A stretch of DNA of 60,356 bases, taken from positions 1 through 60,356 of the IMG/VR virus record IMGVR_UViG_3300027593_000003; one strand, 5' to 3'. Below the pieces are notes generated by a model, which searched no databases, was not told the origin of the DNA, and worked only from the letters and a program-made list of their open reading frames with translations. This document shows positions 802 to 29,395 of this stretch, in pieces (within the stretch, counting starts at the first letter, position 1; the number at the start of each line of letters is the position of its first letter). This DNA comes from a virus. Taxonomy: Duplodnaviria; Caudoviricetes. Made by a program: the position numbers and the translations under genes.

Positions 802-1443
802 TTAACCAACTACCCAATCGCCATGCTTATAGATCCAGTCAACAAAAGAATACTTAACGCCAGAAAGAACTTCATCCGATAGATACGCTTGTCCTTGATC
901 AATTGGGAAACAATACAAAGTGTTTGGCTTAAGTTCTATCTTAGATCCATCAGACAAAAGTTTTATATTTCCGCCAGTCCATTCGCCTAAATAATAAAGC
1001 GCTATGTAGTCTGCTGACTTCCATGTATCCTTACCGCCCCACATTCTGCTTACATCGTCACCAGGTCTTGTTCTATTAATTGTGTTATGTTCGTTTGTCC
1101 AATATTCATTAATTATTGCTTCAACTATTGCAGCGTTTAATGTTTGGATAGTAAGTGGTTTTGAAATTCTTGCGTATAGTTCTGAAGTTTCAGGTATACC
1201 GTGACCAATCCAAGATTCTTCATCAAGAGATTCACATTGAAATAAAATGTATGTGTAGTCTTGAGGATTTAACAGATCGTCGTACTTGAGAATACCGTTT
1301 CCAATGTCAACAAAGCCTGGCTTCTGGTGCAAATAAACTTGTTCAATAGGAACATCGTTTTTAATTTCAAATTGTTGAATAGTTTCTAGTTCTGAAGAAT
1401 CGTTTTGTTCTTCAATAATATTTTCCCAAATAATCTCAGCCAT
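802..1443 (-). CDS. degenerate 2OG-Fe(II) oxygenase-fold protein
   Basis: YYLGEWTGG...KPNTLYCFP...VLSGVKYSFV follows the P4H-like pattern, but HxD and distal His are absent. Confidence 0.65.
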   Translation of the reverse strand: MAEIIWENIIEEQNDSSELETIQQFEIKNDVPIEQVYLHQKPGFVDIGNGILKYDDLLNPQDYTYILFQCESLDEESWIGHGIPETSELYARISKPLTIQTLNAAIVEAIINEYWTNEHNTINRTRPGDDVSRMWGGKDTWKSADYIALYYLGEWTGGNIKLLSDGSKIELKPNTLYCFPIDQGQAYLSDEVLSGVKYSFVDWIYKHGDWVVG

Positions 1444-1444
1444 T

Positions 1445-2002
1445 TTATTTCTTTTCTGTTAAAAAAGTAGAATAAGCATATCTTATTCCGCTAGTAACTT
1501 CTGCTACGCCGTGTCTAATTAAAGCACCGTGTATTAGTAAATCTCCAGACTTAGGCTTTATTTTTAAACCAAGTGATGGGTAATACAATTCTCCGCCTTC
1601 AAAGTTATCTGTAAAGTATGCAACTGCCCCATATTTTGTTATTGCACATGTATTAAAGTCATCGTTTGAAGTTGCTTCACCATCTTCACCACAGGTATCT
1701 TCATGCTCGTGCATACTATCTCCAGGAAACATTCTGTGAAAAGAGGAATTTCTTGTAGCTACATATCCTGGATCTACTAGATCAGATACTCTTTCGTTAA
1801 CCTCAAGCAATTCTGGTATAGCTTTACTGACCTTGCCGTTATACCAATCTAGCGGACTATTTGCTTCGTTCCACTCAGGCTCTGTTAAGCTGTTTGCAAT
1901 ATTCTCTAATGAGATACACTCTTCTTTACTTAAAAAATTTTCGTATACCCAAATTTCGTCGTATATTTTTTTAACGTTTGGGTTGTTGTCAAAATTAAGC
2001 AT
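1445..2002 (-). CDS. 2OG-Fe(II) oxygenase (prolyl 4-hydroxylase-like)
   Basis: HED...YFTDNFEGGELYYP...KPKSGDL...HGVAEVTSGIRY. Confidence 0.9.
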   Translation of the reverse strand: MLNFDNNPNVKKIYDEIWVYENFLSKEECISLENIANSLTEPEWNEANSPLDWYNGKVSKAIPELLEVNERVSDLVDPGYVATRNSSFHRMFPGDSMHEHEDTCGEDGEATSNDDFNTCAITKYGAVAYFTDNFEGGELYYPSLGLKIKPKSGDLLIHGALIRHGVAEVTSGIRYAYSTFLTEKK

Positions 2003-9357: not shown

Positions 9358-9367
9358 GGAGAGCTAA

Positions 9368-12845: not shown

Positions 12846-12858
12846 AGGGGGGCAAGAA

Positions 12859-13071: not shown

Positions 13072-13770
13072 ATGAAGGTAATAAAGTTTATACCTTGGGT
13101 AGAACACTATCCATTGGTTAAACCTGTCAGGTCACAAATTCCACAATGGTGGAAAAAAGGTGAGACTGAAGTTATTATTAATGGAGAAAAACAGGGTAAC
13201 GGAATGAAATCTTGTATACCCTTTATGGAAATAATGTCAGGCGGATATGAAATATTAACTCCATTTGACATCCATGTCATTAAAGACGAAGATGGCAATA
13301 CTCAAGTCAGATGGCAAGGGCCAGAGGGCTGGGATGATTTTGTTGGCGAAAGAGCAAAAGAGCTGGGTGCGACGATACCTAGACCTGCGGGGCATTTACC
13401 AATGGGTTTTATTTGGTCCTGCAAGTGGTCTTGGAAAACACCAAAAGGATATAGCACATTTGTAACTCATCCATTTAATCGATACGAATTGCCATTTACC
13501 ACTTTAAACGGAATTATAGATAGCGATGGTTTTCACGGAAACGGAAATATACCATTTTTTATTAAAGAAGATTTTTCAGGGACTATTCCAGAAGGAACTC
13601 CTTTTGTACAGATATTCCCATTCAAAAGAGACAAGTGGAAAATGTGGACAGACAACTCTTTTAATGCTAGAATATTAGAAGATCAAAATAAAAATTTACG
13701 AACTGCTGATGAAAATGGACTATACCCTTGGTCTTATAAAAAAAGGTTTTGGAAAAAGAAAGAGTTTTAA
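13072..13770 (+). CDS. DUF6065-related / dUTPase-like fold protein
   Basis: PQWWK, KSCIPF, TPKGYS, GIIDSD, GTPFVQIFPFKR. Confidence 0.7.
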   Translation: MKVIKFIPWVEHYPLVKPVRSQIPQWWKKGETEVIINGEKQGNGMKSCIPFMEIMSGGYEILTPFDIHVIKDEDGNTQVRWQGPEGWDDFVGERAKELGATIPRPAGHLPMGFIWSCKWSWKTPKGYSTFVTHPFNRYELPFTTLNGIIDSDGFHGNGNIPFFIKEDFSGTIPEGTPFVQIFPFKRDKWKMWTDNSFNARILEDQNKNLRTADENGLYPWSYKKRFWKKKEF

Positions 13771-14067
13771 ATGTTTAAAAGAAAAACAATTTATAAAAGA
13801 AGCCCAAAAGCAAATGACTTTAACGCACCCAAAGAATTCCACGAGGGCAATAAAATATTTACCCTAGCCCTAGTTATTGATAATGAAGTTGTTGACATAA
13901 TGAGAACAGAAGAGCGGCTAATGTCTATCTTAACAAGCGAGCCCAAAATCATAGATTTGACAACAAAAGATTATAAAGTCCACGTAGGCTGGACTTACCT
14001 AGAAGAAGAAGGGGAGTTTATATCTAATGAAGTTAAAGAAGAAGATAGTTCAGGCGCAGACGTCTGA
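13771..14067 (+). CDS. small hypothetical, possible fibre chaperone
   Basis: LALVIDNEVV...VGWTY..GEF. Confidence 0.65.
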   Translation: MFKRKTIYKRSPKANDFNAPKEFHEGNKIFTLALVIDNEVVDIMRTEERLMSILTSEPKIIDLTTKDYKVHVGWTYLEEEGEFISNEVKEEDSSGADV

Positions 14068-14695
14068 TAGAACAGTAGATTTTACACCTCCCGTCCCAGC
14101 AAAAACAGAAATACCAGATTGGTTTAAATCAATCCCATCCTTGGTAGAAGGAGAAATGTCTATCAAGCGTTGTGTTCCAGTTTTAGATGCATTTACGGCG
14201 GGATATATAATTGTTTCTAATGTTGATTTTATGTTTGATGAAGAATCAGGAAGATTTTTAGATAATGCTTCTTACAGTAGCCCAATAAGCCACCACTTGG
14301 ACTTTCAAACTGAAGACATGCAGATAGACAAAAATTTAAACCCTCATCCATTTAAATGGAATAATCAATGGCATCTTAAACTTCCAAAAGGATACAGCCT
14401 ATTAATTACACACCCACTAAATAGAACAGAGCTTCCCTTTCACAGCCTAACTGGAATTGTTGATGCAGATGTTCATCCAGTAGTAATTAACTTCCCGTTT
14501 TTTATGAAAAAAGGTTTTAGCGGATTAATCCCAGCTGGTACACCCCTAGTTCAAATTATTCCAATCAAGAGGGAGCCCTGGAAATTAAAAGTAAATGATC
14601 AAGATACCTATTTTTATAAGGATTTTTGGAAATGGAACTCTCAGCCAGAAGCAACATATAAAAGAAAGTTTTGGCAAAGAAAGGATTACAGCTAA
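14027..14695 (+). CDS. DUF6065-related / dUTPase-like fold protein
   Basis: PDWFK, KRCVPVLDA, PKGYS, GIVDAD, GTPLVQIIPIKR. Confidence 0.7.
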   Translation: MKLKKKIVQAQTSDRTVDFTPPVPAKTEIPDWFKSIPSLVEGEMSIKRCVPVLDAFTAGYIIVSNVDFMFDEESGRFLDNASYSSPISHHLDFQTEDMQIDKNLNPHPFKWNNQWHLKLPKGYSLLITHPLNRTELPFHSLTGIVDADVHPVVINFPFFMKKGFSGLIPAGTPLVQIIPIKREPWKLKVNDQDTYFYKDFWKWNSQPEATYKRKFWQRKDYS

Positions 14696-14931
14696 TGCCT
14701 GATAGTCCAAAAAAAGCAAGACCCTGGGATTTGTTTACTTCAAAGACTAGAGTTCCAATTGAGATTGCCCTTGAAAGATATGAGATTTGCAAAGGTTGTC
14801 CCGAACTTATTCAGACAACTAAGACATGTAAAAAATGCGGATGCTTTATGGCAGCCAAAACAAAACTTCCACATGCTTCCTGCCCACTTGGCAAATGGGA
14901 TGCAATTGAAGTGGCTCCTAAAGAAGAATAA
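14695..14931 (+). CDS. small Cys-rich metal-binding protein (DUF6171-like)
   Basis: CKGC...CKKCGC...CPLGKW; start by TAATG overlap. Confidence 0.7.
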   Translation: MPDSPKKARPWDLFTSKTRVPIEIALERYEICKGCPELIQTTKTCKKCGCFMAAKTKLPHASCPLGKWDAIEVAPKEE

Positions 14932-18506: not shown

Positions 18507-21500
18507 ATGGCAAGAAAAATATTATTGGAAACATCTTACACGTTTACCCCATCAACAAGAACTATTTCGATCCCAAAGACAATTTTGAAAGAAAGATTGC
18601 TTTTGATCACAAACGTAACAACAAATCAGGTTATCTATAACTTCTCAGATCCAAGCTTGGGCACAACATCATACTCAGCTAGCACAGACGCATTCATGGT
18701 AGAAAATACCACAATGGTTCTGGCATACAACACTGCATCAATGACATCAACTGATAAGCTTATGTTTACAATTGATACATTTGATGAAAGTTTTACTCCA
18801 GCAGAGTCACAGCTAGACCCAGCCAACAAATTTAGAGTTTCTCAACCTAGAGCTCTTATTGATACTGACTTTGAATACGGTACACAGACTTCTAAATGGG
18901 AAAACTTGGGATTAGTAAATAACAGACCATTTTCTTATGCACGACCAACACCTATTGCTAATATTTCTTCTATCGGTCTCCCAACAGGCTCAAGAACAGT
19001 TACAGTAACACTTTCATCTGGAACAGCCCCAGCAAATGGAACTCCAATTTCAATTCAGGATACATTCCTAGCAATTGCAGATGGTAACTTTATTATTGAA
19101 AATGGTGGAGGAGGTTCAAGCTTTACATATACAGCATCTGCTATAAATAGAACAAGCATTACAGAAATTCTTGACCCAAATAAGACTCTTGTTGTTCAAG
19201 GAGTTCTTTACACTGGTGCTCAAATTGGCGGAAACGCATCATTGACTTATTCAGGAAGAAAGATTACAGTAGTAACATCAATTCCTCACGGACTTGCCCT
19301 AGGAAATGAAATTGTTGTTCTAGGTGCTACAGCAACAACTAATCCACCAAACGGTAACCAGGAAGTTGCCCAGGTACTCAATCCAACAACATTTGCATAC
19401 TATCACGACGCAATACCAACAGGAACAATAGCTGGTGGAATTGCAGTATATGTAAGACCACAGTCTACATTTGCACACAGACCACATGATGGTGGTGTTT
19501 TGTTTAGCGCAAACTCATCATCTAACTATGGTCAATGCATTAGACAAACTCGTCGTTATTTTAGATACCAGTCAGGTAAAGGAATCCAGATGTCATCTGG
19601 AACCGTCCTAAAGCCATATGCTGGAATTGAAAATATTACATCAAACGGAACAGTAGCCGTAACAGTTCAAACAAAAGAAAAGCATAATTTGCAGCCAGGA
19701 ACTGTAATTAAAATTGGCGGATGTAATGAATCAGCGTACAATGGAACATTTACAATTAACAATGTTCTTAGCGCTACATCATTTCAATATCAAGCACTAA
19801 CAGTTCCTTCAGCAAACGTAGCAACTGGAGCATTCTTTGCATCAGTTGAAGCATGGTACGGATGCCAAAATAGACTAGGTGTCTTTGATGACCAAAATGG
19901 TTTGTTCTGGGAATACGATGGAACTACACTATACGCAGTTCGCAGAAGCTCAACATTCCAGCTTTCTGGTAAAGTAACAGTATCTGCAAATTCTGCAACA
20001 GTTTTGCAGTCTAGCGTAGAGTTTCCAACATACTTCTCTAAGCAGGTTATTCCAGGAGATAGAATTGTAATTCGTGGACAATCATATAAGATTGTTGCAA
20101 TTGCATCAGATACATCTATGACAATCAGCCCAGCATACCGTGGAGCAAGTGCTTCAATGTGTATTGTTTCAAGAACAGACGATACAAAAATTCCTCAAAG
20201 CGCTTTCAATCTAGATAAGATTGACGGAACAGGACCTTCTCAGTACAACATAGACCTAGGCAAAATGCAGATGTTTTATGTTGACTATACATGGTATGGT
20301 GCAGGATTTGTAAGATGGGGTGTTAGAGGCCCAAAGGGTAACGTTGTTTATGTACACAAGATGCCAAATAACAACGTTAATACAGAGGCCTACATGCGCT
20401 CAGGTAACTTGCCAGGTAGATATGAAAGCACAACAAATCCACCTTACACAAAGGCAACTACAGAAATTTTAACAACAGATTCTGCTCTAACAGTTGCATC
20501 AACAGCTGGCTTCCCGCCTTCAGGAACTCTTGTAATAAGAGACGGAAGCACTTACGAGTATGTAAACTATACAGGAAAATCAGCTACAACATTTACAGGT
20601 CTTACAAGAGCACAAGCAGGTGTTCCAGGAGGACTTACCGTTACAATTGTAGTCGGATCAAGCACTGGAACAGTAGCAAGCAACGCTGGAATTCAAGTTG
20701 GCCAAAGAGTAATCTCCGACGCATTCCCAGAAGGAACATTCGTTTCTTCAATTGTTGGCAACGCTATTCAATTTAGCAAAGCAGCACTATCAGCTAACCC
20801 TACTGGAGTTATTATTGTTCCAATGGGTGCAACATCAGCTCAAGCATTTACATTCGCATCAACTTCACCAACAATGGTAGAGTTGGCATTCCCATCATTC
20901 TCAGCATCCATATCACACTGGGGAACCTCAGTAATTATGGACGGTAACTTTGATGAAGATAAGTCACTTGTCTTTACATATGGACAAAGAACTACAAGCG
21001 CAATTGCCGCAGGTGCTTCCAGAGCCCTTATGGCAATTCGTGTAGCTCCTTCAGCAGATAATGGTATTGCAGCAGCATTCGGACAAAGAGAGCTAGTAAA
21101 CCGTATGCAGCTTACATTAAAGGCTCTAGACGTTACAACATCTACATCAGGTGCAAACCTTCTTGTAACAGCTGTTCTAAACGGAGTTCCTTCAACAACA
21201 AATGCATGGACTAACGCAGTAGGAAACGTATCAGGAGTAGCTAACTCATCACTATCACAGATTGTTGATTATTCAACTACATCAACTACACTTAGTGGTG
21301 GAGAAATTACAGCAGGTTTCTTCGTAGGAACTGGATCAAACTCAATTGATCTATCTCCAGTTAGAGATCTAGGAAACTCTATTATCGGTGGAGGATCTGC
21401 AAACTCAAATGCAAACATTTTTCCAGACGGTCCAGATACACTTACGATTGTTGTTACCAACATTGGTTCAGCAGCAGCAAACGTGTACTCAAGACTATCC

Positions 21501-21521
21501 TGGACAGAGGCTCAGGCATAG
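18507..21521 (+). CDS. large virion structural/fibre protein
   Basis: T/S/G-rich; HGL/HNL...G beta modules; RQTRRYFRYQSGK and WYGAG motifs typical of aquatic phage virion proteins. Confidence 0.7.
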   Translation: MARKILLETSYTFTPSTRTISIPKTILKERLLLITNVTTNQVIYNFSDPSLGTTSYSASTDAFMVENTTMVLAYNTASMTSTDKLMFTIDTFDESFTPAESQLDPANKFRVSQPRALIDTDFEYGTQTSKWENLGLVNNRPFSYARPTPIANISSIGLPTGSRTVTVTLSSGTAPANGTPISIQDTFLAIADGNFIIENGGGGSSFTYTASAINRTSITEILDPNKTLVVQGVLYTGAQIGGNASLTYSGRKITVVTSIPHGLALGNEIVVLGATATTNPPNGNQEVAQVLNPTTFAYYHDAIPTGTIAGGIAVYVRPQSTFAHRPHDGGVLFSANSSSNYGQCIRQTRRYFRYQSGKGIQMSSGTVLKPYAGIENITSNGTVAVTVQTKEKHNLQPGTVIKIGGCNESAYNGTFTINNVLSATSFQYQALTVPSANVATGAFFASVEAWYGCQNRLGVFDDQNGLFWEYDGTTLYAVRRSSTFQLSGKVTVSANSATVLQSSVEFPTYFSKQVIPGDRIVIRGQSYKIVAIASDTSMTISPAYRGASASMCIVSRTDDTKIPQSAFNLDKIDGTGPSQYNIDLGKMQMFYVDYTWYGAGFVRWGVRGPKGNVVYVHKMPNNNVNTEAYMRSGNLPGRYESTTNPPYTKATTEILTTDSALTVASTAGFPPSGTLVIRDGSTYEYVNYTGKSATTFTGLTRAQAGVPGGLTVTIVVGSSTGTVASNAGIQVGQRVISDAFPEGTFVSSIVGNAIQFSKAALSANPTGVIIVPMGATSAQAFTFASTSPTMVELAFPSFSASISHWGTSVIMDGNFDEDKSLVFTYGQRTTSAIAAGASRALMAIRVAPSADNGIAAAFGQRELVNRMQLTLKALDVTTSTSGANLLVTAVLNGVPSTTNAWTNAVGNVSGVANSSLSQIVDYSTTSTTLSGGEITAGFFVGTGSNSIDLSPVRDLGNSIIGGGSANSNANIFPDGPDTLTIVVTNIGSAAANVYSRLSWTEAQA

Positions 21522-21533: not shown

Positions 21534-22034
21534 ATGTCTATTACTAAAGGAAAATTTCCTTACGAAACAGATTTGCAGGTTAAGTCATTATCAGTTTCTG
21601 ATAACTGCGGTCTTTCTGGAATAACAACATTTTCTGGAGTAGTAAAGTTAAGTGGAACACTTGACAGCACATTAGGTAACATTCAGTTTATAGATGGGGT
21701 ACAGTCAAAACAAGGTATCCCATCTATAACACCTATATCTACTAAATTCTTTAATTACACACTAAGTAATTTAAATGAAAGAGATACTATTATTGATATG
21801 AGAATGACTGTTGCAAATACAGTAACAATTCCAGCGGACACCATTCTCAATTTTCCTGTAGGAACCACTATCGATATTTTGCAAACAGGAGCAGGACAAA
21901 CTACAATTCAGGCAGGCGCAGGAGTTGTATTAAACTTTACTCCAGGACAAAAATTAAGATTCCAATGGTCAATTGCAACAATATTAAAACGAGATGCCAA
22001 CACTTGGCTTTTATTTGGAGATTTAACAGCGTAA
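21534..22034 (+). CDS. adaptor protein homologous to C-terminus of 9670..11469
   Basis: VTIP...FPVGT.I.I.Q.GAGQ...LR.QWS.AT..KR..NTWLLFGDLTA. Confidence 0.75.
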   Translation: MSITKGKFPYETDLQVKSLSVSDNCGLSGITTFSGVVKLSGTLDSTLGNIQFIDGVQSKQGIPSITPISTKFFNYTLSNLNERDTIIDMRMTVANTVTIPADTILNFPVGTTIDILQTGAGQTTIQAGAGVVLNFTPGQKLRFQWSIATILKRDANTWLLFGDLTA

Positions 22035-22050: not shown

Positions 22051-23715
22051 ATGGGAAAAAAGACGGGTAGAAAAGCGCAACTCTCTGGAGATTTTGAATA
22101 TCCAGTACCACCAATTAATGTAGTTGCTACAGATGTAGGAACAGATAGACCATATAACAATGGTGCTATAAGTATTACTTTTGAATACCCATCAGGTCAA
22201 TTACCTATTATAAACTATACCGCAAAGTTTACTCCAAATACAGGATCAACCACTTACACAGATTTTGCAGCAACATCTCCAATTGTTATTAGTGGAATAC
22301 CTTCAGGACTGACTGGCTTTGTAACAGTAAATGCAACAAATGTAAATGGAACTTCTCAGGAGTCCACTGCAACCGCCCCACTTTTAGTTACAACAGTTCC
22401 ACAGTCACCAAGAACAGTAACAGCAACATCTACAACTACTGGACCAGGACATAGCACAGATGGAAATCAGACTACTACTCCAGGACAGCGTGGACAGGAT
22501 ATTGTTTCTTGGGGACACCCAGCAGATGGAGGTAAGGCTATATCAAAGTATGTTATTACTTCTTCAGATACAGCAGTACAGCCAGGCGGCTTAGCATCTC
22601 CATACGAAGTTAATTATCCAGCAACATCTTTGGGAATTAGAGAAACAATGGCAAGCGCCCAAATTTATACAGTAAAAGCAGTAAATGCAAATGGAACATC
22701 TCTTGGTCAAGCCACTGGTGAAGTTACAACATTCTTCTCACCTCCAGCATTCTTTTCACCACCTAACTTTTTTGCACCACCTAACTTTTTTGCACCACCT
22801 AATTTTTTTGCGCCACCTAACTTCTTTGCGCCACCTCAGTTCTTTGCACCACCAAACTTCTTCGTTCCACCACTATTCTTTGCACCACCTCAGTTTTTTG
22901 CCCCACCGCAGTTCTTTGCGCCACCGCAGTTCTTTGCGCCACCTAACTTTTTTACCCCTCCAGGGTTCTTTGCACCACCAAGATTCTTTGCCCCTCCAGC
23001 ATTCTTCTCGCCTCCAGGGTTCTTTTCACCACCAAGATTCTTCTCGCCTCCAGGGTTCTTTGCACCACCAAGATTCTTTGCCCCTCCAGGGTTCTTTGGC
23101 CCACCAAGATTCTTTGGTCCTCCAGGGTTTTGTATTCCAGCAGATACTGAAGTGCTAACTACAGACGGTTATAAGAAAGCAAAAGATATTAAAGTTGATG
23201 ATTATCTTTTAACTGCTTCTTTTGATAACCTACCTAAGCATGACTCTAATTGTTCTCAAGGCCACATAACAACAGAATGTATTATCAAGGTTGCTGGATG
23301 GAGAGACCTATCTATGGTTAACCCATCTACCCTAGAGTCTAAGGTTACAAATATTTTTAAACAAACAAAATCCTCATTTATGAGAATTAACAACAATCCT
23401 AAACACGACCTATCTTTAGTAGAGCAGCCTCTAGTAAAAAGAGGCAGCGAATACATGTTCCCAGAAGTAACTGATTTAGAGGTTGGCGACGAGATTTATA
23501 ATTACGATGATCCCTCTAGTCCAATTGTTATAGATTCACTAAATATAATTGAAGAAGATCTAGATGTCTTCCTATTCTATAGAGAGCCTTGGGGACTTCT
23601 TGTAGCTGGATCAATGCTTGCCTACAATGGATGCGAAACATCTACTGAATTTATTCAAGTTGAAGATGATCATCATGATCAAGAAGAGGCAAATACAGAA
23701 TTTCAGGATATATAA
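22051..23715 (+). CDS. FN3-FN3-(FFxPPx)22-Hint domain protein (cargo 2)
   Basis: Two FN3-like units (P..P..V.A...W...Y...A.N.NG.S), 22 hexapeptide repeats, then CIPADTEVLTTDGYKKAKDIKVDD...LVAGSMLAYN. Confidence 0.85.
   Translation: MGKKTGRKAQLSGDFEYPVPPINVVATDVGTDRPYNNGAISITFEYPSGQLPIINYTAKFTPNTGSTTYTDFAATSPIVISGIPSGLTGFVTVNATNVNGTSQESTATAPLLVTTVPQSPRTVTATSTTTGPGHSTDGNQTTTPGQRGQDIVSWGHPADGGKAISKYVITSSDTAVQPGGLASPYEVNYPATSLGIRETMASAQIYTVKAVNANGTSLGQATGEVTTFFSPPAFFSPPNFFAPPNFFAPPNFFAPPNFFAPPQFFAPPNFFVPPLFFAPPQFFAPPQFFAPPQFFAPPNFFTPPGFFAPPRFFAPPAFFSPPGFFSPPRFFSPPGFFAPPRFFAPPGFFGPPRFFGPPGFCIPADTEVLTTDGYKKAKDIKVDDYLLTASFDNLPKHDSNCSQGHITTECIIKVAGWRDLSMVNPSTLESKVTNIFKQTKSSFMRINNNPKHDLSLVEQPLVKRGSEYMFPEVTDLEVGDEIYNYDDPSSPIVIDSLNIIEEDLDVFLFYREPWGLLVAGSMLAYNGCETSTEFIQVEDDHHDQEEANTEFQDI
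22732..23127 (+). repeat. 22 x 18-nt coding repeat (FFxPPx)
   Basis: Counted directly, 396 nt. Confidence 0.95.
23131..23628 (+). other. Hint (intein-like) autoprocessing domain
   Basis: Block A Cys1 motif, LEVGD motif, terminal Asn; non-canonical block B and +1 Gly. Confidence 0.75.
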
Positions 23716-23718
23716 TCC

Positions 23719-23747
23719 TTGACTATATTGCATAAAAATGCTATTCT
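23719..23747 (+). promoter_or_regulatory. leaderless sigma70-type promoter of oxygenase operon
   Basis: TTGACT-17 bp-TATTCT with extended TG; ATG 6 nt downstream. Confidence 0.7.
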
Positions 23748-23753
23748 TTAATA

Positions 23754-24377
23754 ATGATATACAACAAAAAACAACTGTATCCTGGAATATGGGTATATCC
23801 TAATTCTTTTCCAAAAGAACTTGATCTAATTAATAGGATTGAGGAATGCGTATCTAGCAAGCAAGCTGACTGGAATGGCGCAAGTGTTTGCTTAGAAGAA
23901 ATAGATTTAACTTATAGAGATGCCTGGGATTTTAAGTTATCGGCTTTAGGCAAATCCCACCCACTTTATAAAGATATTTATGACTGTCAAAAAGATGCAG
24001 TTCAAGATTTTTGCAATATGTATTCAATTAAAATGGATTTCTGGGAATGGACAAATATTGTTAAGTATTACCCAAATCAATTTTTTCAAGAACATGCAGA
24101 TGACGGTTGGTCATATAAATGCGCTGTCTCTCTAGTTGGATATCCAAATGATGGATATACTGGGGGAGGGCTATATTTCCCTAAATTTAATTTACATATA
24201 ACCCCAGAACTAGGAGACCTTGTTATATTTCCATCATCCTTTATATATTCTCACGTAGCACTGCCAGTTGAAACTGGTGTTAAATATTCTTTTGTTACCA
24301 TGCTAGACTACAACGACGACGCCCATACTGAAGAATATGATAGAATGATAGATAACAAACACAAGGGGAAAAAATAA
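23754..24377 (+). CDS. 2OG-Fe(II) oxygenase, P4H-like
   Basis: HAD...GYTGGGLYFP...HVALPVETGVKY. Confidence 0.9.
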   Translation: MIYNKKQLYPGIWVYPNSFPKELDLINRIEECVSSKQADWNGASVCLEEIDLTYRDAWDFKLSALGKSHPLYKDIYDCQKDAVQDFCNMYSIKMDFWEWTNIVKYYPNQFFQEHADDGWSYKCAVSLVGYPNDGYTGGGLYFPKFNLHITPELGDLVIFPSSFIYSHVALPVETGVKYSFVTMLDYNDDAHTEEYDRMIDNKHKGKK

Positions 24378-24378
24378 T

Positions 24379-25119
24379 ATGCTTCCAAATGGAGAAACGA
24401 TCTACCCAGGAATTATTGTATACAGAGACGTTTTTAAAAAAGAATACAATCTGGCAGAAAGATTAGAAAAGGTTTTAGAAAAACAGGAAAACAAGAAGCA
24501 CTGGAATTTAGCTCAAACAGGTTTTGATACACTAAATACAGACTACAGGGATGCTTGGGATTTTAAGATTAAAGAAAACGATGGAGGATCCTTAATGTAT
24601 GGAAATGGTAACCACGTTCAAGAAGAAAATCTTACGGAAGATGAAATAGAGCTAAGACAAATATGGAGAGACTCAAAAGGAGTCCAGCTTAGCGCTGTAG
24701 CAGATTATATGAATATGTTCCAGCTACCTCCATTAAATTACTGGGAATCTTTTAACTTTATTAAGTATGCAAAAAATCAACATTTTAATGTGCACTCAGA
24801 TCACGGGTACTCGTATGTATGTGTGCTTTCATCAGTAGGATATATTAATGACGATTATGAAGGCGGAGAGTTATTTTTTGATAAATTAGGTCTTAAGATT
24901 AAGCCAAAAGCTGGAGACTTATACCTATTCCCATCTTCTTATATCTATTCTCACGCAGCAATGCCAGTCCGATCTGGAACTAAATATGCTATTGTAACTA
25001 TGCTAGATTATCAAGAAGCTCCACATACACCTCTCTATAGAGAAATAGAAGCAAGCTATGAATATAATCATTTCACTGAAGGGAAAAAATTTATCCCAGC
25101 AGAACAAAGGGAGAGCTAA
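24379..25119 (+). CDS. 2OG-Fe(II) oxygenase, P4H-like
   Basis: HSD...YINDDYEGGEL...HAAMPVRSGTKY. Confidence 0.9.
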   Translation: MLPNGETIYPGIIVYRDVFKKEYNLAERLEKVLEKQENKKHWNLAQTGFDTLNTDYRDAWDFKIKENDGGSLMYGNGNHVQEENLTEDEIELRQIWRDSKGVQLSAVADYMNMFQLPPLNYWESFNFIKYAKNQHFNVHSDHGYSYVCVLSSVGYINDDYEGGELFFDKLGLKIKPKAGDLYLFPSSYIYSHAAMPVRSGTKYAIVTMLDYQEAPHTPLYREIEASYEYNHFTEGKKFIPAEQRES

Positions 25120-25833
25120 TTGATTAGAATAACAGCATATGATAATTTTCAAGACACTGCTAACATTGAGCCTCTTTCTGCAAAAAGAGACTGGATGGAT
25201 GAAACAGAGCACAATCATGCATACAGATGCTTTCCATTAACGCTAGCAAATCAATTAGGCTGGGGTATATCATTTCCAGAAGATATAACCTTTATGTGGG
25301 ATGGAGTAACAAGTACTTATCCACATAACGTTCAGGTTTTGCAGGGACAAAAGTACTGCGAGACTGGTAGAGGTCACTCAACAATTAACTTTAAAACAAA
25401 TTTAACTTTTGAAACAGACAGTAACTATACTTTGCTATCTTTTCCAGTTCCAAATATGTTCGTTGATGGAGCTCAGGCCGTAACAAGTTTATTAACAACA
25501 TCCTTTTTTGGCAGCCCATTGCCAGTTGCATGGAAGATTACAAAGCCCTACGTTCCAATTACAATCAAAGCTGGACAGCCAGTAATTGCAATTTTACCAA
25601 TATCTTTAACAGAGCTAAACAATTCTACTCTTGAGGTAAAGGATATAAGGCACATGCCACAGCCACACCTTGAGAATATCCCAACTTATGAAGGAGCAGT
25701 TGCTGCAGCTAAAGAGGCGGCAGAAAAACAAATTTGGACGGATTACTATAGGGATGCTACAGATTATCTAGGTAATAAGCTTGGGTCCCACGAAGTAAAA
25801 TCAATTAAGCTGAAGGTTAGTAAGCACAAATGA
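25120..25833 (+). CDS. DUF6065 family protein
   Basis: RDWMDET...AYRCFPLTLANQLGW...WDG; TTG start with SD. Confidence 0.7.
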   Translation: MIRITAYDNFQDTANIEPLSAKRDWMDETEHNHAYRCFPLTLANQLGWGISFPEDITFMWDGVTSTYPHNVQVLQGQKYCETGRGHSTINFKTNLTFETDSNYTLLSFPVPNMFVDGAQAVTSLLTTSFFGSPLPVAWKITKPYVPITIKAGQPVIAILPISLTELNNSTLEVKDIRHMPQPHLENIPTYEGAVAAAKEAAEKQIWTDYYRDATDYLGNKLGSHEVKSIKLKVSKHK

Positions 25834-26540
25834 AAATTGTTTTTAATTCAAATAGGCACTATAACAACGACGAACTTGCACCAAGTCCTTCAAAAAATAC
25901 AATGCCAGCATGGTTTAAAAATGCCAGCAAATATTGGAAAGATTTTGAGGGAAACGATGTAGTCGGGCCACCAGATAATAAAAAGGGCCCAGGATTTAAA
26001 TCTTGTCCAGCTCTTCATGATATTTTTACAACAGGATATACATTTACAACACCATGCGACATTAATGTTTTTATGCAAAGCGGATATCCATTAATAAAAG
26101 CAGAGCCAGGATATGATGATTTTGTTGCAATACGTTCGCATATGGGAGAGTTCTATTATCCTGAAGGGTATTATAAATTTGTTTACCATTGGTATCCAAA
26201 CTGGGGGTTTACGCTTCCAGATGGATACAGCGCTTTAGTAGTTCAGCCAATCAATAACTTCGGCCTGCCTTTTTTAACAGTAGGCGGTATAATTGATAGT
26301 GACAAGTACGGAGCACCAGGACTGATGCCCTTTTTTATTAGAGACGGATTTACAGGAATAATTCCAAAAGGAACCCCTTACGCACAAATTATTCCGATCA
26401 AAAGAGAAGAATGGGTATCAGAGTTTAATTTGTATACCTATCAAGAAATGCAAAAAAAGCATGACGATCACGTAGCTATTTATAGAGCAGACACTGGCGT
26501 TTATAAAAAAAGAACTTGGGTACCTAAAAAATATGAATAG
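25830..26540 (+). CDS. DUF6065-related / dUTPase-like fold protein
   Basis: PAWFK, KSCPALHD, PDGYS, GIIDSD, GTPYAQIIPIKR. Confidence 0.7.
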   Translation: MKIVFNSNRHYNNDELAPSPSKNTMPAWFKNASKYWKDFEGNDVVGPPDNKKGPGFKSCPALHDIFTTGYTFTTPCDINVFMQSGYPLIKAEPGYDDFVAIRSHMGEFYYPEGYYKFVYHWYPNWGFTLPDGYSALVVQPINNFGLPFLTVGGIIDSDKYGAPGLMPFFIRDGFTGIIPKGTPYAQIIPIKREEWVSEFNLYTYQEMQKKHDDHVAIYRADTGVYKKRTWVPKKYE

Positions 26541-26553
26541 GAAAAGAAACTAA

Positions 26554-27237
26554 ATGGATAACACGGTAGAGAACTCATCGGATATTAGAAAGCACAGAAC
26601 ATCTATTACTCCTTCAGGATACTTTGGCAACGGCCCAGAAAACATTGTTGAAATTGAAAATTTGTTAACTGAAGAAGAAAATGAATACCTTCTTAATTTT
26701 ATTAAGGGTAATCAAGTATGGGATCAAGGGCAAGACGTACGTAATGAAAATGGAACTATAATTTATCAACACAATGTATGGGCAGATCGTGTTGCAACAA
26801 AAAAATCCCTAGATGAATCAGACCCTAATGTTTCGGTAATGCTAAATACAATAATTCAAAGACTAAGACTTATTATTGAAAAGCACTTTAATGTAGAGGT
26901 AAACCCAACAGGGCCTTGTTTAGTAAGATGGCCAGTTGGTTCTATGCAGTGGCCACATGCAGACAAAGAGTTGCACGAAGGTCCAGACAAGGGCACCGCA
27001 AACAATTTCCCGTGGTACGACATTGGAACAGTAATTTATTTAAATGAAGACTATGAGGGTGGAAGACTTCATTTTCCAAAACAAGAAATTGCCTTTAAGC
27101 CAAAAGCTAGAGCTGCATATTTTTTTCCAGGAGATTTAAACTATATACACGGAGTAGACGTAATTACACAAGGCACCAGATACACCTCACCATGGTTCTG
27201 GACTATAACTAAATTAGGAGAAAAAACAAATGGCTGA
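26554..27237 (+). CDS. 2OG-Fe(II) oxygenase
   Basis: HAD...YLNEDYEGG...HGVDVITQGTRY. Confidence 0.9.
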   Translation: MDNTVENSSDIRKHRTSITPSGYFGNGPENIVEIENLLTEEENEYLLNFIKGNQVWDQGQDVRNENGTIIYQHNVWADRVATKKSLDESDPNVSVMLNTIIQRLRLIIEKHFNVEVNPTGPCLVRWPVGSMQWPHADKELHEGPDKGTANNFPWYDIGTVIYLNEDYEGGRLHFPKQEIAFKPKARAAYFFPGDLNYIHGVDVITQGTRYTSPWFWTITKLGEKTNG

Positions 27238-28090
27238 TTTCACATCAAAAACACTCTATCCTAGAATTGAAATCTACAAGGGCTTGCTCCCAGATCATAA
27301 AGAAATTTTTGATGTTGTAAAGTCAACCGAGAGCATTGAAAATGAGTCGGACGAGCACTACTTTGTTCCGTGGACAAAATGGAGCAAGTTTGGAACTTAC
27401 TCATCAACAAAGTTTAAGGGTGCAGTAGAAAGCCTACTTGGTAAAAATAAAACCTTCGACAAAGAGTACTGGGCTGCCGAAAAGGTTTGGGACGCATATA
27501 ATGTTGCCATTGATGACTATATTAAAAAGTATAATGTAGAGCTTCCCAAAGATTGTCAGCTAGGATCATCCTCATTCTGTAAATATTTTACTAACGTTGA
27601 TTCTTTAAAAAATAATTTAACCATGCAGTATCATACTGATTTTAAGCAAACAGATAAGGATGCTCCAGGAGATAAGTTTTATATTACATGCACAGTTTAC
27701 ATTAACGATGATTACGAAGGTGGAGAAATAGAGTTTTATGTAAACGGAGAATTTGTTCCTGCATATAAGCCAGAGGCTGGAGATATTATGGTTTTCCCTT
27801 CTGGCGAAGGATACTATCATGGAGTTAAGACTGCAACAAAAGGCAATAAGTATTTAATAAGAAACTTTATGTTTTATCCATATGCAGGGTCAGAAGAGTG
27901 GCTTGCAAACCAATTGAAGTATGGTGCAACAAAATGGGCAGAGATGGAAAAAAGAAGAATAAGCCTTGATGTATACGGAGGCAACTTGGTATTTGAAAAC
28001 GGAAAAGAAAAGGTTCCAACTGAAAAAGAAATACAAGACCACATAGACTATTTGGATAGTTTAGAAGATAAAGATAAGACGGTGTGCTAA
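27230..28090 (+). CDS. 2OG-Fe(II) oxygenase
   Basis: HTD...YINDDYEGGEI...HGVKTATKGNKY. Confidence 0.9.
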   Translation: MADFTSKTLYPRIEIYKGLLPDHKEIFDVVKSTESIENESDEHYFVPWTKWSKFGTYSSTKFKGAVESLLGKNKTFDKEYWAAEKVWDAYNVAIDDYIKKYNVELPKDCQLGSSSFCKYFTNVDSLKNNLTMQYHTDFKQTDKDAPGDKFYITCTVYINDDYEGGEIEFYVNGEFVPAYKPEAGDIMVFPSGEGYYHGVKTATKGNKYLIRNFMFYPYAGSEEWLANQLKYGATKWAEMEKRRISLDVYGGNLVFENGKEKVPTEKEIQDHIDYLDSLEDKDKTVC

Positions 28091-28800
28091 TGGAAATTAT
28101 ATCCCTTAAAGATGATGTTTTTGTTGTTGATAATTTAATTACAGAAGAAGAATGTCAAAAAATAATTGCTTATTTTGATGCAATTACAGATGCAGGACAT
28201 TTAAAGTGGAATCAAATATCTTTTTATGGTTCTTTGGCAATGGGCTACTGGCCATGGGACGAAAACCTTTTAGTGTTTGGATTGCCTAAAGATTACTTTT
28301 CTATTTTAAAAGAAAAAGTAAAAAAGGCAGGAGAGATGTGTTTTGATAGAGAGCTATCAGAGGTTAGCTACCATGCACAAAAATGGGTAGTTGGCGCATT
28401 CGCTGGATTTCATTCAGACAATACTCATGAAGATGGTTCCCCCTCTGCATTCTATAAAAGCAAGTACGCTGGGTTTCTTTACTTAAATGATAATTTTGAT
28501 GGAGGAGTTTTAAACTTCAAACATCATGATATTGCAATAAAGCCAAAGCCTGGAAGATTAGCTTTCTTTAAAGGTGGGCACGGTAATGAGCACGAAGTTA
28601 CTATGGTTCAAAAGGCAGAAAGATATACAGTCGGATCTTTTTGGGATAATGCCGACGCTGTTTACACGCCAGAACAAATAGCTGAATGGGAAGCTGAGCT
28701 TAAAGAGACAAGAGCGGAACAAGAAAAAACTTACGAAGAATGGAACGAGCTTAAGAAAAAAGGAACTCCTCCAACACATAAGGGCAAATACGATGCATAA
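28090..28800 (+). CDS. 2OG-Fe(II) oxygenase
   Basis: HSD...YLNDNFDGG...HEVTMVQKAERY; start by TAATG overlap. Confidence 0.9.
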   Translation: MEIISLKDDVFVVDNLITEEECQKIIAYFDAITDAGHLKWNQISFYGSLAMGYWPWDENLLVFGLPKDYFSILKEKVKKAGEMCFDRELSEVSYHAQKWVVGAFAGFHSDNTHEDGSPSAFYKSKYAGFLYLNDNFDGGVLNFKHHDIAIKPKPGRLAFFKGGHGNEHEVTMVQKAERYTVGSFWDNADAVYTPEQIAEWEAELKETRAEQEKTYEEWNELKKKGTPPTHKGKYDA

Positions 28801-29395
28801 AGAAATTATTAACAAGGATATACATTACTACACTGAGGTTTTTGATGATACAGAATCCATGATAAAAGAAATTGAATGGATGGACCAATTTCAAGATGTT
28901 GGGTCTCAAATAACTAAATGGGAGCCATGGCTTTCTTCTTGCAAAAGTGTGCAGTACGGTTATCAAAAAACAATAAATTATAAAAATGTTTTAAACAATA
29001 ACCCTAGAGACAGACATAACTCTAAAATTGCCAGTATAATCCATTATAGAGCAATTCAAATAGGAGAAGAATATGCTTTGTCTCACGGCATAGATCTCGG
29101 CGATCTTCCAACACATTGTAAAATATATAAGTATGACAACTTAACAGAAATGGGTCCTCACACAGATTACGATCCAGACTATAGCCCAAAAGATTTAATA
29201 GGCACAGTCTCAATTGTTTTTTATATAAATGATGACTACTTGGGTGGAGATCTAAATTTTCCAAATGACGATATATCTGTAAAGCCAAAGGCAAGCAGCG
29301 CATTAGTGTTTAAATCACACGGAGTTTTACATGAGCCAAAGCCAACAACAGAAGGCACGAAATATATGGTTGCAATATTTTTCTTTAAAAAGTAA
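28793..29395 (+). CDS. 2OG-Fe(II) oxygenase
   Basis: HTD...YINDDYLGG...HEPKPTTEGTKY. Confidence 0.9.
   Translation: MHKEIINKDIHYYTEVFDDTESMIKEIEWMDQFQDVGSQITKWEPWLSSCKSVQYGYQKTINYKNVLNNNPRDRHNSKIASIIHYRAIQIGEEYALSHGIDLGDLPTHCKIYKYDNLTEMGPHTDYDPDYSPKDLIGTVSIVFYINDDYLGGDLNFPNDDISVKPKASSALVFKSHGVLHEPKPTTEGTKYMVAIFFFKK

What the first reader, a model, noticed from the sequence alone, without database searches (positions are those of the whole stretch)
22051..29395. Candidate new system: (FFxPPx)22-Hint cargo protein with a dedicated eight-gene oxygenase/DUF6065 block
Seen: a protein with two FN3-like domains, 22 Phe-Phe-x-Pro-Pro-x repeats and a Hint domain. Directly downstream, under its own promoter, sit six 2OG-Fe(II) oxygenases with intact HxD...H triads and two DUF6065/dUTPase-like genes. 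Four of the six have Lys at the 2OG-binding position, as in collagen-type and algal-virus prolyl 4-hydroxylases (established). Inference: the repeat is the substrate, receiving Pro and possibly Phe/Asn/Arg hydroxylation, and the Hint domain releases or ligates its C-terminus. This would give a chemically tailored peptide displayed on a virion fibre, a RiPP-like logic in a phage. Possible roles are adhesion, receptor mimicry or protection from grazers and proteases.
Basis: partly seen in the sequence, partly recalled or inferred. Interest (0 to 1): 0.93.

Follow-up and report, generated by a model that had tools for sequence, protein, structure and literature searches.

The report
Phage Phe-Pro repeat protein plus hydroxylases
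An uncultured freshwater phage encodes, among its tail-fibre genes, a protein with 22 Phe-Phe-x-Pro-Pro-x units capped by a self-cleaving-type (Hint) domain and followed by six collagen-hydroxylase-like enzymes, which makes the repeat a testable candidate target for phage oxygenase arrays whose role is unknown; no chemistry has been shown.

Summary
All gene-level observations hold. The 554-aa protein has two FN3 domains, exactly 22 FFxPPx units and a Hint/intein-like domain that starts at Cys361. Six 2OG-Fe(II) oxygenases with intact HxD...H follow; four have Lys and two Arg at His+10. There are also two DUF6065-type genes with a dUTPase-like fold. Only the "own promoter" is no better than chance.

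The substrate idea is partly supported, by comparative genomics only. In 51 of 56 assessable loci sampled through an oxygenase, an aromatic/Pro repeat gene lies within three genes upstream. In loci sampled through the repeat protein, 54 of 59 aromatic-Pro-Pro repeat proteins have at least 3 such oxygenases. None of 40 one-Pro (FGFSPF) repeat proteins do; those are followed by a different enzyme set. The nearest solved relatives are collagen-type prolyl and lysyl hydroxylases.

Against it: all loci belong to one phage lineage with conserved gene order. Only three independent contrasts exist (p 0.25). The region is a plastic hot spot. The Hint domain comes and goes at least 20 times. DUF6065 is unexplained.

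The scan has noted the same cassette before on other DNA (63 notes in at least 49 genomes). I found nothing on it in print.

The parts
21534..22034 (+). 166-aa protein equal to the C-terminal domain of tail-fibre proteins ('adaptor'); always precedes the repeat protein, either free or fused to the fibre
   Evidence: PHROG hits to the C-termini of fibre and minor tail proteins (phrog_18179, phrog_8780). The same domain ends the upstream fibre in L016, L019 and L017. Syntenic in the 9 closest of 14 loci; only partial or weak matches in the other five.
22051..22731 (+). N-terminal part of the repeat protein: conserved basic N-terminal peptide plus two FN3 domains (residues 1-227)
   Evidence: Profile A4 against PDB hits titin and fibronectin FN3, E 8e-75. 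Atlas feature hits to viral fn3 clusters score 0.96.
22732..23130 (+). 22 x Phe-Phe-x-Pro-Pro-x (residues 228-359) plus Phe360
   Evidence: Regex count. TRF finds period 18 x 21.7 copies. It is the only one of 55 window ORFs with more than 2 Pro-Pro dipeptides (23).
23131..23715 (+). Hint / bacterial-intein-like domain from Cys361 to ...Tyr-Asn526, then a 28-aa acidic tail
   Evidence: Cys at position 1 in 72 of 72 aligned homologues. Terminal Asn in 74 of 98. The block-B position is Glu here (His 53, Gln 49, Glu 21 of 124).
23754..24377 (+). ox1, P4H-type 2OG-Fe(II) oxygenase (Lys at His+10)
   Evidence: PF13640 33.5 bits; alignment.
24379..25119 (+). ox2, P4H-type 2OG-Fe(II) oxygenase (Lys)
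   Evidence: PF13640 46.4 bits. Best PDB hit is the B. anthracis prolyl 4-hydroxylase, 1.5e-5; the ox1/ox2 profile reaches 8.8e-8.
25120..25833 (+). DUF6065 protein (duf1), dUTPase-like fold
   Evidence: PF19541 E 6.9e-34. AF2 model pLDDT 92. Foldseek hits are dUTPases.
25830..26540 (+). DUF6065-like paralogue (duf2), 18% identical to duf1; keeps a G-I-I-D-S-D motif
   Evidence: phrog_7084 E 1.7e-33; family HMM; alignment A3; motif count.
26554..27237 (+). ox3, 2OG-Fe(II) oxygenase (Arg at His+10), the best conserved of the six
   Evidence: PF13640 26.1 bits, just under the cut-off of 27. Profile A5 hits B. anthracis P4H at 1.7e-5 and prolyl 3-hydroxylase 1 at 2.1e-5. At least 584 relatives in IMG/VR.
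27230..28090 (+). ox4, 2OG-Fe(II) oxygenase (Lys)
   Evidence: PF13640 38.2 bits.
28084..28800 (+). ox5, 2OG-Fe(II) oxygenase (Arg)
   Evidence: PF13640 40.8 bits.
28793..29395 (+). ox6, 2OG-Fe(II) oxygenase (Lys)
   Evidence: PF13640 36.5 bits.
13072..14931 (+). Second pair of DUF6065-like genes (13072-13770, 14027-14695) plus a small DUF6171-like Cys-rich gene (14671-14931), downstream of another fibre gene and a Cys-rich 458-aa protein. Possibly a sister cassette without oxygenases.
   Evidence: Family HMM. PF19541 weak hit at E 2.7e-4. PF19668 24.8 bits, under its cut-off of 27. ORFs.
802..2002 (-). Two further oxygenase-family genes on the other strand, away from the block
   Evidence: Family HMM. 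PF13640 24.8 bits for 1445-2002, under the cut-off; none for 802-1443.

Best explanation
This is a virion-protein maturation cassette of an uncultured freshwater siphophage lineage of about 110 kb.

Proposed mechanism:
1. The repeat protein (FN3-FN3-(FFxPPx)22-Hint) is made together with the tail fibres.
2. The six collagen-hydroxylase-like 2OG-Fe(II) oxygenases encoded right behind it hydroxylate residues of the repeat. The most likely targets are the prolines; the C-terminal units read Pro-Pro-Gly / Pro-Pro-Arg.
3. The C-terminal Hint domain makes a thioester at Phe360-Cys361. This either cleaves the domain off or passes the repeat's C-terminus to another nucleophile.
4. The result is a roughly 360-aa modified appendage attached to the fibre through its FN3 end.

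Shown: the domain architecture, the enzyme family, the conserved pairing, and the change of enzyme set with repeat type.

Inferred: that the repeat is the substrate, which residues are modified, that the Hint domain is active, that the protein sits in the virion, and any role of the two DUF6065 proteins (no function proposed beyond 'accessory').
For: (a) Pairing when sampled through an enzyme. I examined the best 80 of at least 584 IMG/VR relatives of ox3. Of these, 8 were duplicates and 16 had the cluster at a contig edge. Of the 56 assessable, 51 have an aromatic/Pro repeat gene within 3 genes upstream (33 directly adjacent) and 1 has only a 5'-cut Hint ORF. The other 4 have none flagged: two read the repeat in the wrong frame at the contig edge, one is at an edge, and one is truly different.

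(b) Pairing when sampled through the repeat protein (L006-L148, unique proteins with at least 4 downstream genes). Of 59 aromatic-Pro-Pro repeat proteins, 55 have at least 1 PF13640-type oxygenase before the next large gene, 54 have at least 3, and 54 have DUF6065. Of 40 FGFSPF (one-Pro) repeat proteins, none has at least 3 such oxygenases. 36 of the 40 carry a different roughly 215-aa family and 13 carry a sulfotransferase-like gene (PF03567, E 3.4e-7).

(c) On a tree of the FN3 regions (125 rows), repeat class and enzyme set never separate: 88 A+oxygenases, 36 B+other set, 1 A with few, 0 mixed. The tree needs 5-6 changes.

(d) Enzyme family. Best solved relatives are B. anthracis prolyl 4-hydroxylase (8.8e-8), lysyl hydroxylase LH3, prolyl 3-hydroxylase 1, a viral-type lysyl hydroxylase (6ax6) and the PBCV-1 prolyl 4-hydroxylase 5c5t (0.0069). 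No AlkB or TET entries appeared.

(e) The cargo is the only Pro-Pro-rich ORF of 55 in the window. The genes are packed at -8 to +38 nt on one strand, inside the fibre-to-portal block.

(f) The paralogues are old (18-44% identical), and each keeps its place and orthologue down to loci whose portal is about 75-80% identical.

(g) Hint fold with Cys at position 1 in all aligned homologues.

(h) Contigs of four metatranscriptome-labelled runs cover parts of the cargo and of most enzyme genes at 99-100% identity. This shows presence only, since DNA carry-over is not excluded.
Against: - All loci come from one phage lineage with the same gene order, so the pairing may be inherited rather than selected. 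Only 3 independent contrasts lie on well-supported branches. The enzyme set goes the same way in 2.7 of them on average and the other way in none, but the sign test gives p 0.25. The tree is the quick one, not the careful search.
- Repeat and enzymes are physically contiguous, so block recombination alone could move them together.
- The site is a plastic region. The related Streptomyces phage BillNye has glycosyltransferase, RNR and endolysin there and no oxygenases.
- Oxygenase genes also occur away from any repeat gene (window 802-2002). 31% of other genes in these loci also have an oxygenase within 3 genes, against 80% for repeat/Hint genes.
- 4 of 59 aromatic-Pro-Pro repeat proteins have no oxygenase next to them.
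- DUF6065 has a dUTPase-like fold, which fits nucleotide chemistry better than protein chemistry. A DUF6065 pair also follows a Cys-rich protein that has no Pro repeat.
- Six to eleven paralogues are more than proline hydroxylation alone explains.
- The window's Hint has Glu at the block-B His position and Tyr-Asn instead of His-Asn, so its activity is uncertain.
- No mass-spectrometric or virion data exist.
Confidence: 0.5

Rival explanations
1. The oxygenase/DUF6065 block is an accessory or host-takeover gene set unrelated to the repeat protein. It might act on 2OG level or metabolism, nucleotides or DNA, or host proteins. It sits beside the repeat gene only because both lie in the same plastic region, kept by descent.
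For: Published readings of multi-copy phage 2OG oxygenases are 2OG/nitrogen signalling or DNA repair (PMC3037559; passages found with paper reading 'find'). The DUF6065 fold is dUTPase-like. Haloarchaeal virus homologues of duf2 lie next to RNR and a methylase, not oxygenases. The region is variable, and BillNye lacks the block. One lineage, only 3 independent contrasts. Extra oxygenases lie elsewhere in the window.
Against: The nearest solved relatives are protein (collagen-type) hydroxylases, with no AlkB or TET entries. The block lies inside the late structural gene run on the same strand with near-zero spacing. The enzyme set switches with the repeat type in 124 of 125 tree rows, with no mixed case. 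The dUTPase-like G-h-h-D-x-D motif is kept in only 66 of 255 unique DUF6065-type ORFs.
Confidence: 0.22
2. The oxygenases modify another virion protein (the long fibres, the 1004-aa structural protein or the downstream 596-aa laminin-G-like protein) or the host surface. The repeat protein is a bystander fibre decoration.
For: Fibre genes and a laminin-G-type protein flank the block in every locus. Second-site repeat proteins without adjacent oxygenases exist (4 of 59). Six or more paralogues suggest several targets.
Against: No other ORF in the window is Pro-rich. The flanking proteins stay the same while the enzyme set follows the repeat type.
Confidence: 0.12
3. The repeat is the target, but the chemistry is not simple proline hydroxylation. 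It could be aromatic or beta-carbon hydroxylation, cross-linking, or priming for glycosylation by the phage GT4 enzyme at 3743-4744. The Hint domain would act only as a removable folding or trimerisation cap, like the self-cleaving C-terminal chaperone domains of other phage fibres.
For: 6-11 diverged paralogues. Mixed Lys/Arg at the 2OG site. A GT4 glycosyltransferase is nearby. In relatives the Hint is replaced by Cys-rich knots or by nothing, as expected of an exchangeable end cap.
Against: The GT is conserved in BillNye, which lacks the cassette.
Confidence: 0.15

Closest known systems
Chlorovirus PBCV-1 prolyl 4-hydroxylase (PDB 5c5t) and that virus's Pro-rich repeats. The biochemistry is recalled (Eriksson et al. 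1999) and was not read here.
   Same: A virus-encoded P4H-type 2OG oxygenase together with virus-encoded Pro-rich tandem repeats. 5c5t is hit by the ox1/ox2 profile at E 0.0069.
   Different: That system is a eukaryotic giant virus with one enzyme. The repeats are not adjacent to the enzyme gene and there is no Hint. Here there is a bacteriophage with 6-11 paralogues, DUF6065 partners, an aromatic-Pro-Pro unit and a Hint cap, all in one gene run.
Bacillus anthracis prolyl 4-hydroxylase (PDB 3itq, 5hv0) and collagen-like surface proteins
   Same: Best solved relative of ox1, ox2 and ox3 (E 8.8e-8 and 1.7e-5). Same PF13640 family and HxD...H triad.
   Different: About 30% identity over only the core strands. 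That enzyme is cellular and single-copy, and its substrate is Gly-X-Y collagen-like. Here the repeat lacks Gly at every third residue.
Collagen maturation: prolyl 4- and 3-hydroxylases, lysyl hydroxylase LH3, and a removable C-propeptide. Mimivirus collagen hydroxylase is also relevant (6ax6; its identity is recalled).
   Same: Several hydroxylase types act on one repetitive Pro-rich chain whose C-terminal domain is removed after assembly. LH3, P3H1 and 6ax6 are among the hits.
   Different: There is no Gly-X-Y repeat and no evidence of a triple helix. Removal would be by a Hint thioester, not by a protease.
Bacterial intein-like (BIL) domains and the BIL2 domain of Tetrahymena BUBL1 (PDB 6tmm, 6y75, 2lwy)
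   Same: Best structural matches of the C-terminal domain. Cys at position 1 and a C-terminal Asn. They have no homing endonuclease and sit in a non-essential host protein. BIL domains cleave or ligate their N-terminal flank (recalled).
   Different: 12-14% identity. Pfam Hint models do not detect it. The window copy has Glu for the block-B His and Tyr-Asn at the end. Only a short acidic tail follows it.
Multi-copy 2OG-Fe(II) oxygenases of T4-like cyanophages (Sullivan et al. 2010, PMC3037559)
   Same: Several paralogues per phage genome with unknown substrate. They are distant homologues, 22-34% identical over part of ox2, and share phrog_61.
   Different: In the records listed they lie next to replication genes such as uvsX or the primase-helicase, not in a block behind a repeat protein. 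The published ideas are 2OG signalling or DNA repair.

Membership tests
P4H-type 2OG-Fe(II) oxygenase (Pfam PF13640) | Score over the Pfam gathering cut-off (27 bits) | tested here: met
   5 of 6 pass (33.5-46.4 bits). ox3 scores 26.1 bits, just under. In the six-frame search the ox3 region (26956-27186) scores 27.2 bits and is flagged over the cut-off; that search returned five matches and did not return ox6.
P4H-type 2OG-Fe(II) oxygenase (Pfam PF13640) | Fe(II) facial triad HxD...H | tested here: met
   Invariant in 6 of 6 paralogues.
P4H-type 2OG-Fe(II) oxygenase (Pfam PF13640) | Basic residue for the 2OG C5 carboxylate about 10 residues after the distal His (Lys in collagen P4H; position recalled) | tested here: met
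   K in ox1, 2, 4 and 6; R in ox3 and 5. That Lys marks collagen-type and algal-virus P4H is recalled, not tested.
P4H-type 2OG-Fe(II) oxygenase (Pfam PF13640) | Hydroxylates peptidyl proline | not testable with these tools
   No assay was possible. The co-folding job gave no answer (see Tried and rejected).
Hint / intein-like superfamily (BIL type) | Hint fold | tested here: met
   AF2 pLDDT 90.9. Foldseek hits BIL2, BIL, inteins and hedgehog with E 1.5e-5 to 1e-3. The profile hits inteins at E 8.5e-6.
Hint / intein-like superfamily (BIL type) | Nucleophile (Cys/Ser) at position 1 | tested here: met
   Cys361 in the window. Cys in 72 of 72 homologues aligned at that column; 52 of 124 were not aligned there.
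Hint / intein-like superfamily (BIL type) | Block-B Thr-x-x-His and C-terminal His-Asn | tested here: not met
   The window has Ser-x-x-Glu and Tyr-Asn. In the family the block-B position is His 53, Gln 49, Glu 21, and the penultimate residue is His 74, Tyr 19. So it has the fold and the nucleophile, but it is not a canonical splicing intein.
Hint / intein-like superfamily (BIL type) | Pfam Hint/intein models match | tested here: not met
   0 families at E 10 for the C-terminal 178 aa.
Fibronectin type III | Sequence profile match to FN3 domains | tested here: met
   Profile A4 hits titin and fibronectin FN3, E 8e-75 to 1e-6, as two domains. The single sequence is not detected by Pfam.
DUF6065 (PF19541) | Score over the cut-off (26.6 bits) | tested here: met
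   duf1 scores 117.8 bits. duf2 is not detected by Pfam and is linked only through phrog_7084 and the family HMM.
dUTPase (enzyme) | Trimeric dUTPase fold with the five conserved motifs | tested here: inconclusive
   The fold is similar (TM 0.67 on the target, E 4.8e-4, about 10% identity). The sequence profile gives only E 0.22-1.4. A motif-III-like G-h-h-D-x-D is present in duf2 but in only 66 of 255 family members. The other motifs were not checked.
RiPP pathway | Short precursor with leader and core, with the leader removed to release a small peptide | tested here: not met
   The precursor is 554 aa with two folded FN3 domains. The self-cleaving domain is C-terminal, so the product would be about 360 aa. 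It works 'like' a RiPP only in having the tailoring genes next to the substrate gene.
Collagen-like protein | Gly at every third residue | tested here: not met
   The unit is FFxPPx. Gly occurs in 2 of 22 units at position 3 and in 5 of 22 at position 6.

The most novel reading that the evidence does not exclude
Phages of an abundant freshwater lineage run a multi-enzyme post-translational tailoring pathway on their own virion appendage. A battery of 3-11 specialised hydroxylases, with dUTPase-fold partners, decorates an aromatic-proline polymer. A Hint domain then uses thioester chemistry to ligate the polymer covalently to the fibre or to a host-surface nucleophile. A sister branch uses a sulfotransferase-like enzyme and a second enzyme family (a weak lead points to oxygenases) on a Phe-Gly-Phe-Ser-Pro polymer. 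This would be a modular 'substrate plus matched enzymes' system, so far unknown in bacteriophages.
Probability: 0.3. Interest if true: 0.88.

Novelty: new variant of a known kind. Interest (0 to 1): 0.7.

Why it matters
Arrays of 2OG-Fe(II) oxygenases are among the commonest orphan genes of aquatic phages, and their substrates are unknown. Here a candidate substrate is encoded right in front of them, and it changes when the enzymes change. That turns an open question into a simple co-expression and mass-spectrometry experiment.

If the reading is right:
- It would be the first enzymatic hydroxylation pathway for a bacteriophage structural protein.
- It would show a new use of Hint/BIL thioester chemistry in virion assembly.
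- It would provide a set of hydroxylases acting on unusual Phe/Pro polymers.

If it is wrong, the cassette is still a widespread, conserved marker of an uncultured phage lineage of about 110 kb.

Tried and rejected
Searches in the 'phages' collection:
- Megablast of the block and tblastn of the whole cargo: no match.
- tblastn of the Hint domain and of duf1: no match at E 1e-3. No sequenced isolate in that collection carries the cassette.

Co-folding: complex prediction with ox2 (alignment A6) and cargo residues 234-287 returned 'no answer' (score 0.00, controls not run). This counts neither for nor against binding.

I used the search for related loci with two of them instead.

Cellular context of DUF6065: the single genome-contig scan returned 8 loci, all with the same phage-type gene order, lying in MAG bins of discordant phyla. 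This gave no cellular context and no host.

Identity of the roughly 215-aa family of the FGFSPF loci (fam0):
- Atlas features point to PF13759 2OG-FeII_Oxy_5 clusters (0.96).
- The family conserves HDH...GHPH...R-I-T-x-A-Y-D.
- Pfam finds nothing.
- hhalign against my oxygenase alignment gives 2% probability.
- PF13759 searched on three such contigs hits other ORFs, not fam0.
It remains a lead only.

RNA: contigs from RNA-labelled runs show presence only. Depth differences between genes are not interpretable from contigs.

Literature (all searches by the paper search):
- 'DUF6065': 0 papers.
- Four further searches combined phage, prolyl hydroxylase, tail fibre, collagen-like, Hint and bacterial intein-like terms. 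Judged from the listings (titles and abstract starts), none describes this cassette.
- Of these papers I read only passages of PMC3037559.
- Supplements were closed and not consulted. Gene tables in supplements of freshwater phage metagenome papers could mention these genes.

Rejected readings:
- Canonical splicing intein: no +1 nucleophile pattern, and there is no extein to rejoin.
- Collagen: no Gly-X-Y.
- Dedicated promoter: not above chance.

Full report
**What the window is.** The window is a whole IMG/VR virus record of 60,356 bases, estimated 56% complete, at 36-46% G+C, with no tRNA genes. The finding lies in a run of same-strand structural genes:
- tail-fibre proteins (7948-11469 and 15470-18502);
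- a 1004-aa virion structural protein;
- a 166-aa fibre-end domain;
- the cargo gene;
- eight enzyme-like genes;
- a laminin-G-type 596-aa protein;
- portal, protease and capsid genes.

The portal is about 60% identical to those of Streptomyces phages such as BillNye. The window shares BillNye's order transglycosylase - glycosyltransferase - RNR ... portal. BillNye has no fibre/cargo/oxygenase insert there. The 1004-aa protein is 44-47% identical to virion proteins of T4-like cyanophages. Near-identical DNA is held by many riverine and freshwater metagenomes. The host is unknown.

**The observation.**
- The cargo (22051-23715, 554 aa) has exactly 22 FFxPPx units at residues 228-359.
- Pfam sees nothing in it. 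A profile of 24 homologous N-termini matches FN3 domains of titin and fibronectin, best E 8e-75, as two domains.
- A profile of 27 C-terminal domains matches inteins and a bacterial intein-like domain. The AF2 model (pLDDT 90.9) is closest to BIL2 of Tetrahymena BUBL1, the C. thermocellum BIL, inteins and hedgehog Hint.
- Cys361 opens the domain. Cys is present in all 72 homologues aligned at that column. The window copy has Glu at the block-B His position and ends Tyr-Asn rather than His-Asn.
- Six downstream genes are PF13640 oxygenases, five over the cut-off and ox3 0.9 bit under. HxD...H is invariant. At His+10, four have Lys and two have Arg.
- duf1 is DUF6065 (E 6.9e-34). duf2 is a distant paralogue. 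The family model (pLDDT 92) resembles only dUTPases.
- The promoter-like site between cargo and ox1 is a 9-of-12 match in a region with no excess of such sites.

**Relatives.** The cargo query found 14 loci. All keep the cargo - oxygenase/DUF6065 order, and those that reach far enough also keep the laminin-G protein and the portal. The closest nine keep all six oxygenases and both DUF genes in the window's order. In three loci the repeat protein ends without a Hint, in a Cys-rich tail or after a few residues. The C-terminal domain alone found 45 representative proteins. Of the 16 I retrieved, the full-length ones are mostly N-terminal (largely FN3-like) domains + a short aromatic/Pro repeat of another kind + a Cys-started Hint ending His-Asn. 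Two of these were used to fetch 127 more loci.

I called ORFs in all loci and searched them with HMMs built from the window's oxygenases, the DUF genes and the Hint alignment. This gave 546 oxygenase, 163 DUF and 114 Hint ORFs.

**The pattern.** In repeat-sampled loci, counting unique proteins with at least 4 downstream genes:
- 55 of 59 aromatic-Pro-Pro repeat proteins are followed by at least 1 PF13640-type oxygenase, 54 by at least 3, and 54 by DUF6065.
- None of 40 FGFSPF-repeat proteins has at least 3 such oxygenases.
- 36 of those 40 are followed by a different roughly 215-aa family, and 13 by a sulfotransferase-like gene.

The roughly 215-aa family may be an Oxy_5-type oxygenase (Atlas features 0.96 and an HDH...GHPH...R motif). 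Pfam and hhalign do not confirm this.

I also sampled the other way, through ox3. There are at least 584 relatives in IMG/VR, and I examined the best 80. Of these, 8 were duplicates, 16 were not assessable and 56 were assessable. Among the 56, 51 have a repeat gene within three genes upstream and 1 has a 5'-cut Hint ORF. Of the 4 without, three are contig-edge artefacts.

As a description only: 151 of 189 repeat/Hint ORFs have an oxygenase-type gene among the next three genes, against 367 of 1176 other genes.

**How independent is this?** I built a tree of the FN3 regions with 125 rows out of 178 unique repeat proteins. I left out proteins of class 'other', those whose repeat starts outside residues 150-320, those cut at a locus edge, and those with fewer than 4 downstream genes. 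The tree is the quick one, because the careful search did not finish. It shows 88 'aromatic-PP + at least 3 oxygenases', 36 'FGFSPF + other set', 1 'aromatic-PP + few' and no mixed case. It needs 5-6 changes, of which well-supported branches force 3. The independent-pairs test finds 3 pairs on supported branches. The enzyme set goes the same way in 2.7 on average and the other way in none. The p value is 0.25, which cannot be significant with so few pairs. Hint presence changes at least 20 times on the same tree. Because the repeat is the 3' end of the gene next to the enzymes, block recombination could also move them together.

**Enzyme family.** Profiles of ox1/ox2 and of ox3 hit the following:
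- B. anthracis prolyl 4-hydroxylase (8.8e-8; 1.7e-5);
- lysyl hydroxylase LH3;
- prolyl 3-hydroxylase 1;
- PKHD-type hydroxylases (PiuC);
- 6ax6;
- PBCV-1 P4H 5c5t (0.0069).

No nucleic-acid oxygenase appears. Two hits to designed proteins, with 0 matched stretches, are spurious. Distant relatives in isolates are the cyanophage 2OG oxygenases, at 22-34% identity. For those, Sullivan et al. 2010 proposed 2OG signalling or DNA repair (passages read).

**DUF6065.** It has a dUTPase-like fold. A dUTPase motif-III-like G-h-h-D-x-D occurs in duf2 and in both genes of the second pair, but in only 66 of 255 unique family ORFs. The second pair in the window (13072-14695) follows a different, Cys-rich 458-aa protein behind another fibre gene. 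So DUF6065 goes with 'the protein after a fibre' more generally than with Pro repeats. Its role is unexplained. duf2 homologues in haloarchaeal tailed viruses lie next to RNR and a methylase.

**Expression.** Four RNA-labelled runs hold contigs that are 99-100% identical and cover parts of the cargo and of most enzyme genes. One contig runs from cargo codons across the intergenic space into ox1, with only 28 letters inside ox1. This shows presence only.

**Reading.** The best-supported mechanism is a virion-protein maturation cassette. Collagen-type hydroxylases would act on the Pro-rich repeat of a fibre-attached FN3 protein, and a Hint cap would cleave or transfer the repeat's C-terminus. 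I put this at about 0.5.

The main rival, at about 0.22, is that the enzymes are unrelated accessory genes kept beside the repeat gene by descent in a plastic region. The 'RiPP' label does not fit, because the product would be a protein of about 360 aa. The Hint domain is optional in the family.

**Earlier notes.** The scan has noted the same cassette on other DNA (63 notes in at least 49 genomes). Follow-ups there reached the same partly supported reading. I reached mine before reading them, and I tested the shared claims here.

**Print.** My searches found no description of it.

Noticed in passing
window 9670-14931: A possible sister cassette. It has a 599-aa fibre ending in the same C-terminal 'adaptor' domain as the 166-aa protein, then a 458-aa protein with a Cys/Tyr/Gly/Asn-rich insert. 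After that come two DUF6065-like genes separated by small ORFs, and an 86-aa Cys-rich DUF6171-like gene (24.8 bits, under the cut-off). It has no oxygenases. Similar roughly 80-aa Cys-rich ORFs lie between the repeat gene and the oxygenases in other loci (e.g. L016 11375-11617).
   Followed up: partly
L022-L084 (e.g. L023 9992-16799): A sister branch of the phage lineage carries FN3-FN3-(FGFSPF/GV)n-Hint proteins. These are followed by a sulfotransferase-family gene (PF03567, E 3.4e-7), two or three copies of an unassigned roughly 215-aa family with an HDH...GHPH...R motif, a class II-like RNR, and one or two PF13640 oxygenases.
   Followed up: partly
window 802-2002 (- strand): Two more oxygenase-family genes lie on the opposite strand, near a transglycosylase. 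They are far from any repeat gene. One has weak PF13640 and Tet_JBP hits, both under their cut-offs.
   Followed up: partly
window 18507-21521: The 1004-aa virion structural protein is 44-47% identical over its full length to structural proteins of T4-like cyanomyophages (S-RSM4, S-PM2, Syn1). The portal, in contrast, is 60% identical to those of Streptomyces siphophages. The fibre module looks exchanged between unrelated phage groups.
   Followed up: partly
L007 802-2019; L023 1232-2704; L120 9458-10501; L145 2754-6074 and others: Many related contigs carry second and third Hint-capped proteins with other N-terminal domains (PASTA, long fibre-like regions). Their repeats differ too (poly-Pro, PTFPTF, APVTPPVSP). 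About half are followed by a single oxygenase.
   Followed up: partly
L232-L239: Contigs with this phage gene order sit in MAG bins labelled Bacteroidia, Acidimicrobiaceae, Luteolibacter, Beijerinckiaceae and others. The labels disagree, so these are probably binning carry-over and say nothing about the host.
   Followed up: no
L091, L092 (giant-virus MAG contigs): The FGFSPF-type query matched a short repeat stretch (about 69% over 45 aa) in giant-virus contigs that also hold two oxygenase-family ORFs within 10 kb. This may be a chance low-complexity match.
   Followed up: no
window 3743-4744: A GT4-type glycosyltransferase is conserved in position with Streptomyces phage BillNye. It could matter if hydroxylated residues are glycosylated.
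   Followed up: no
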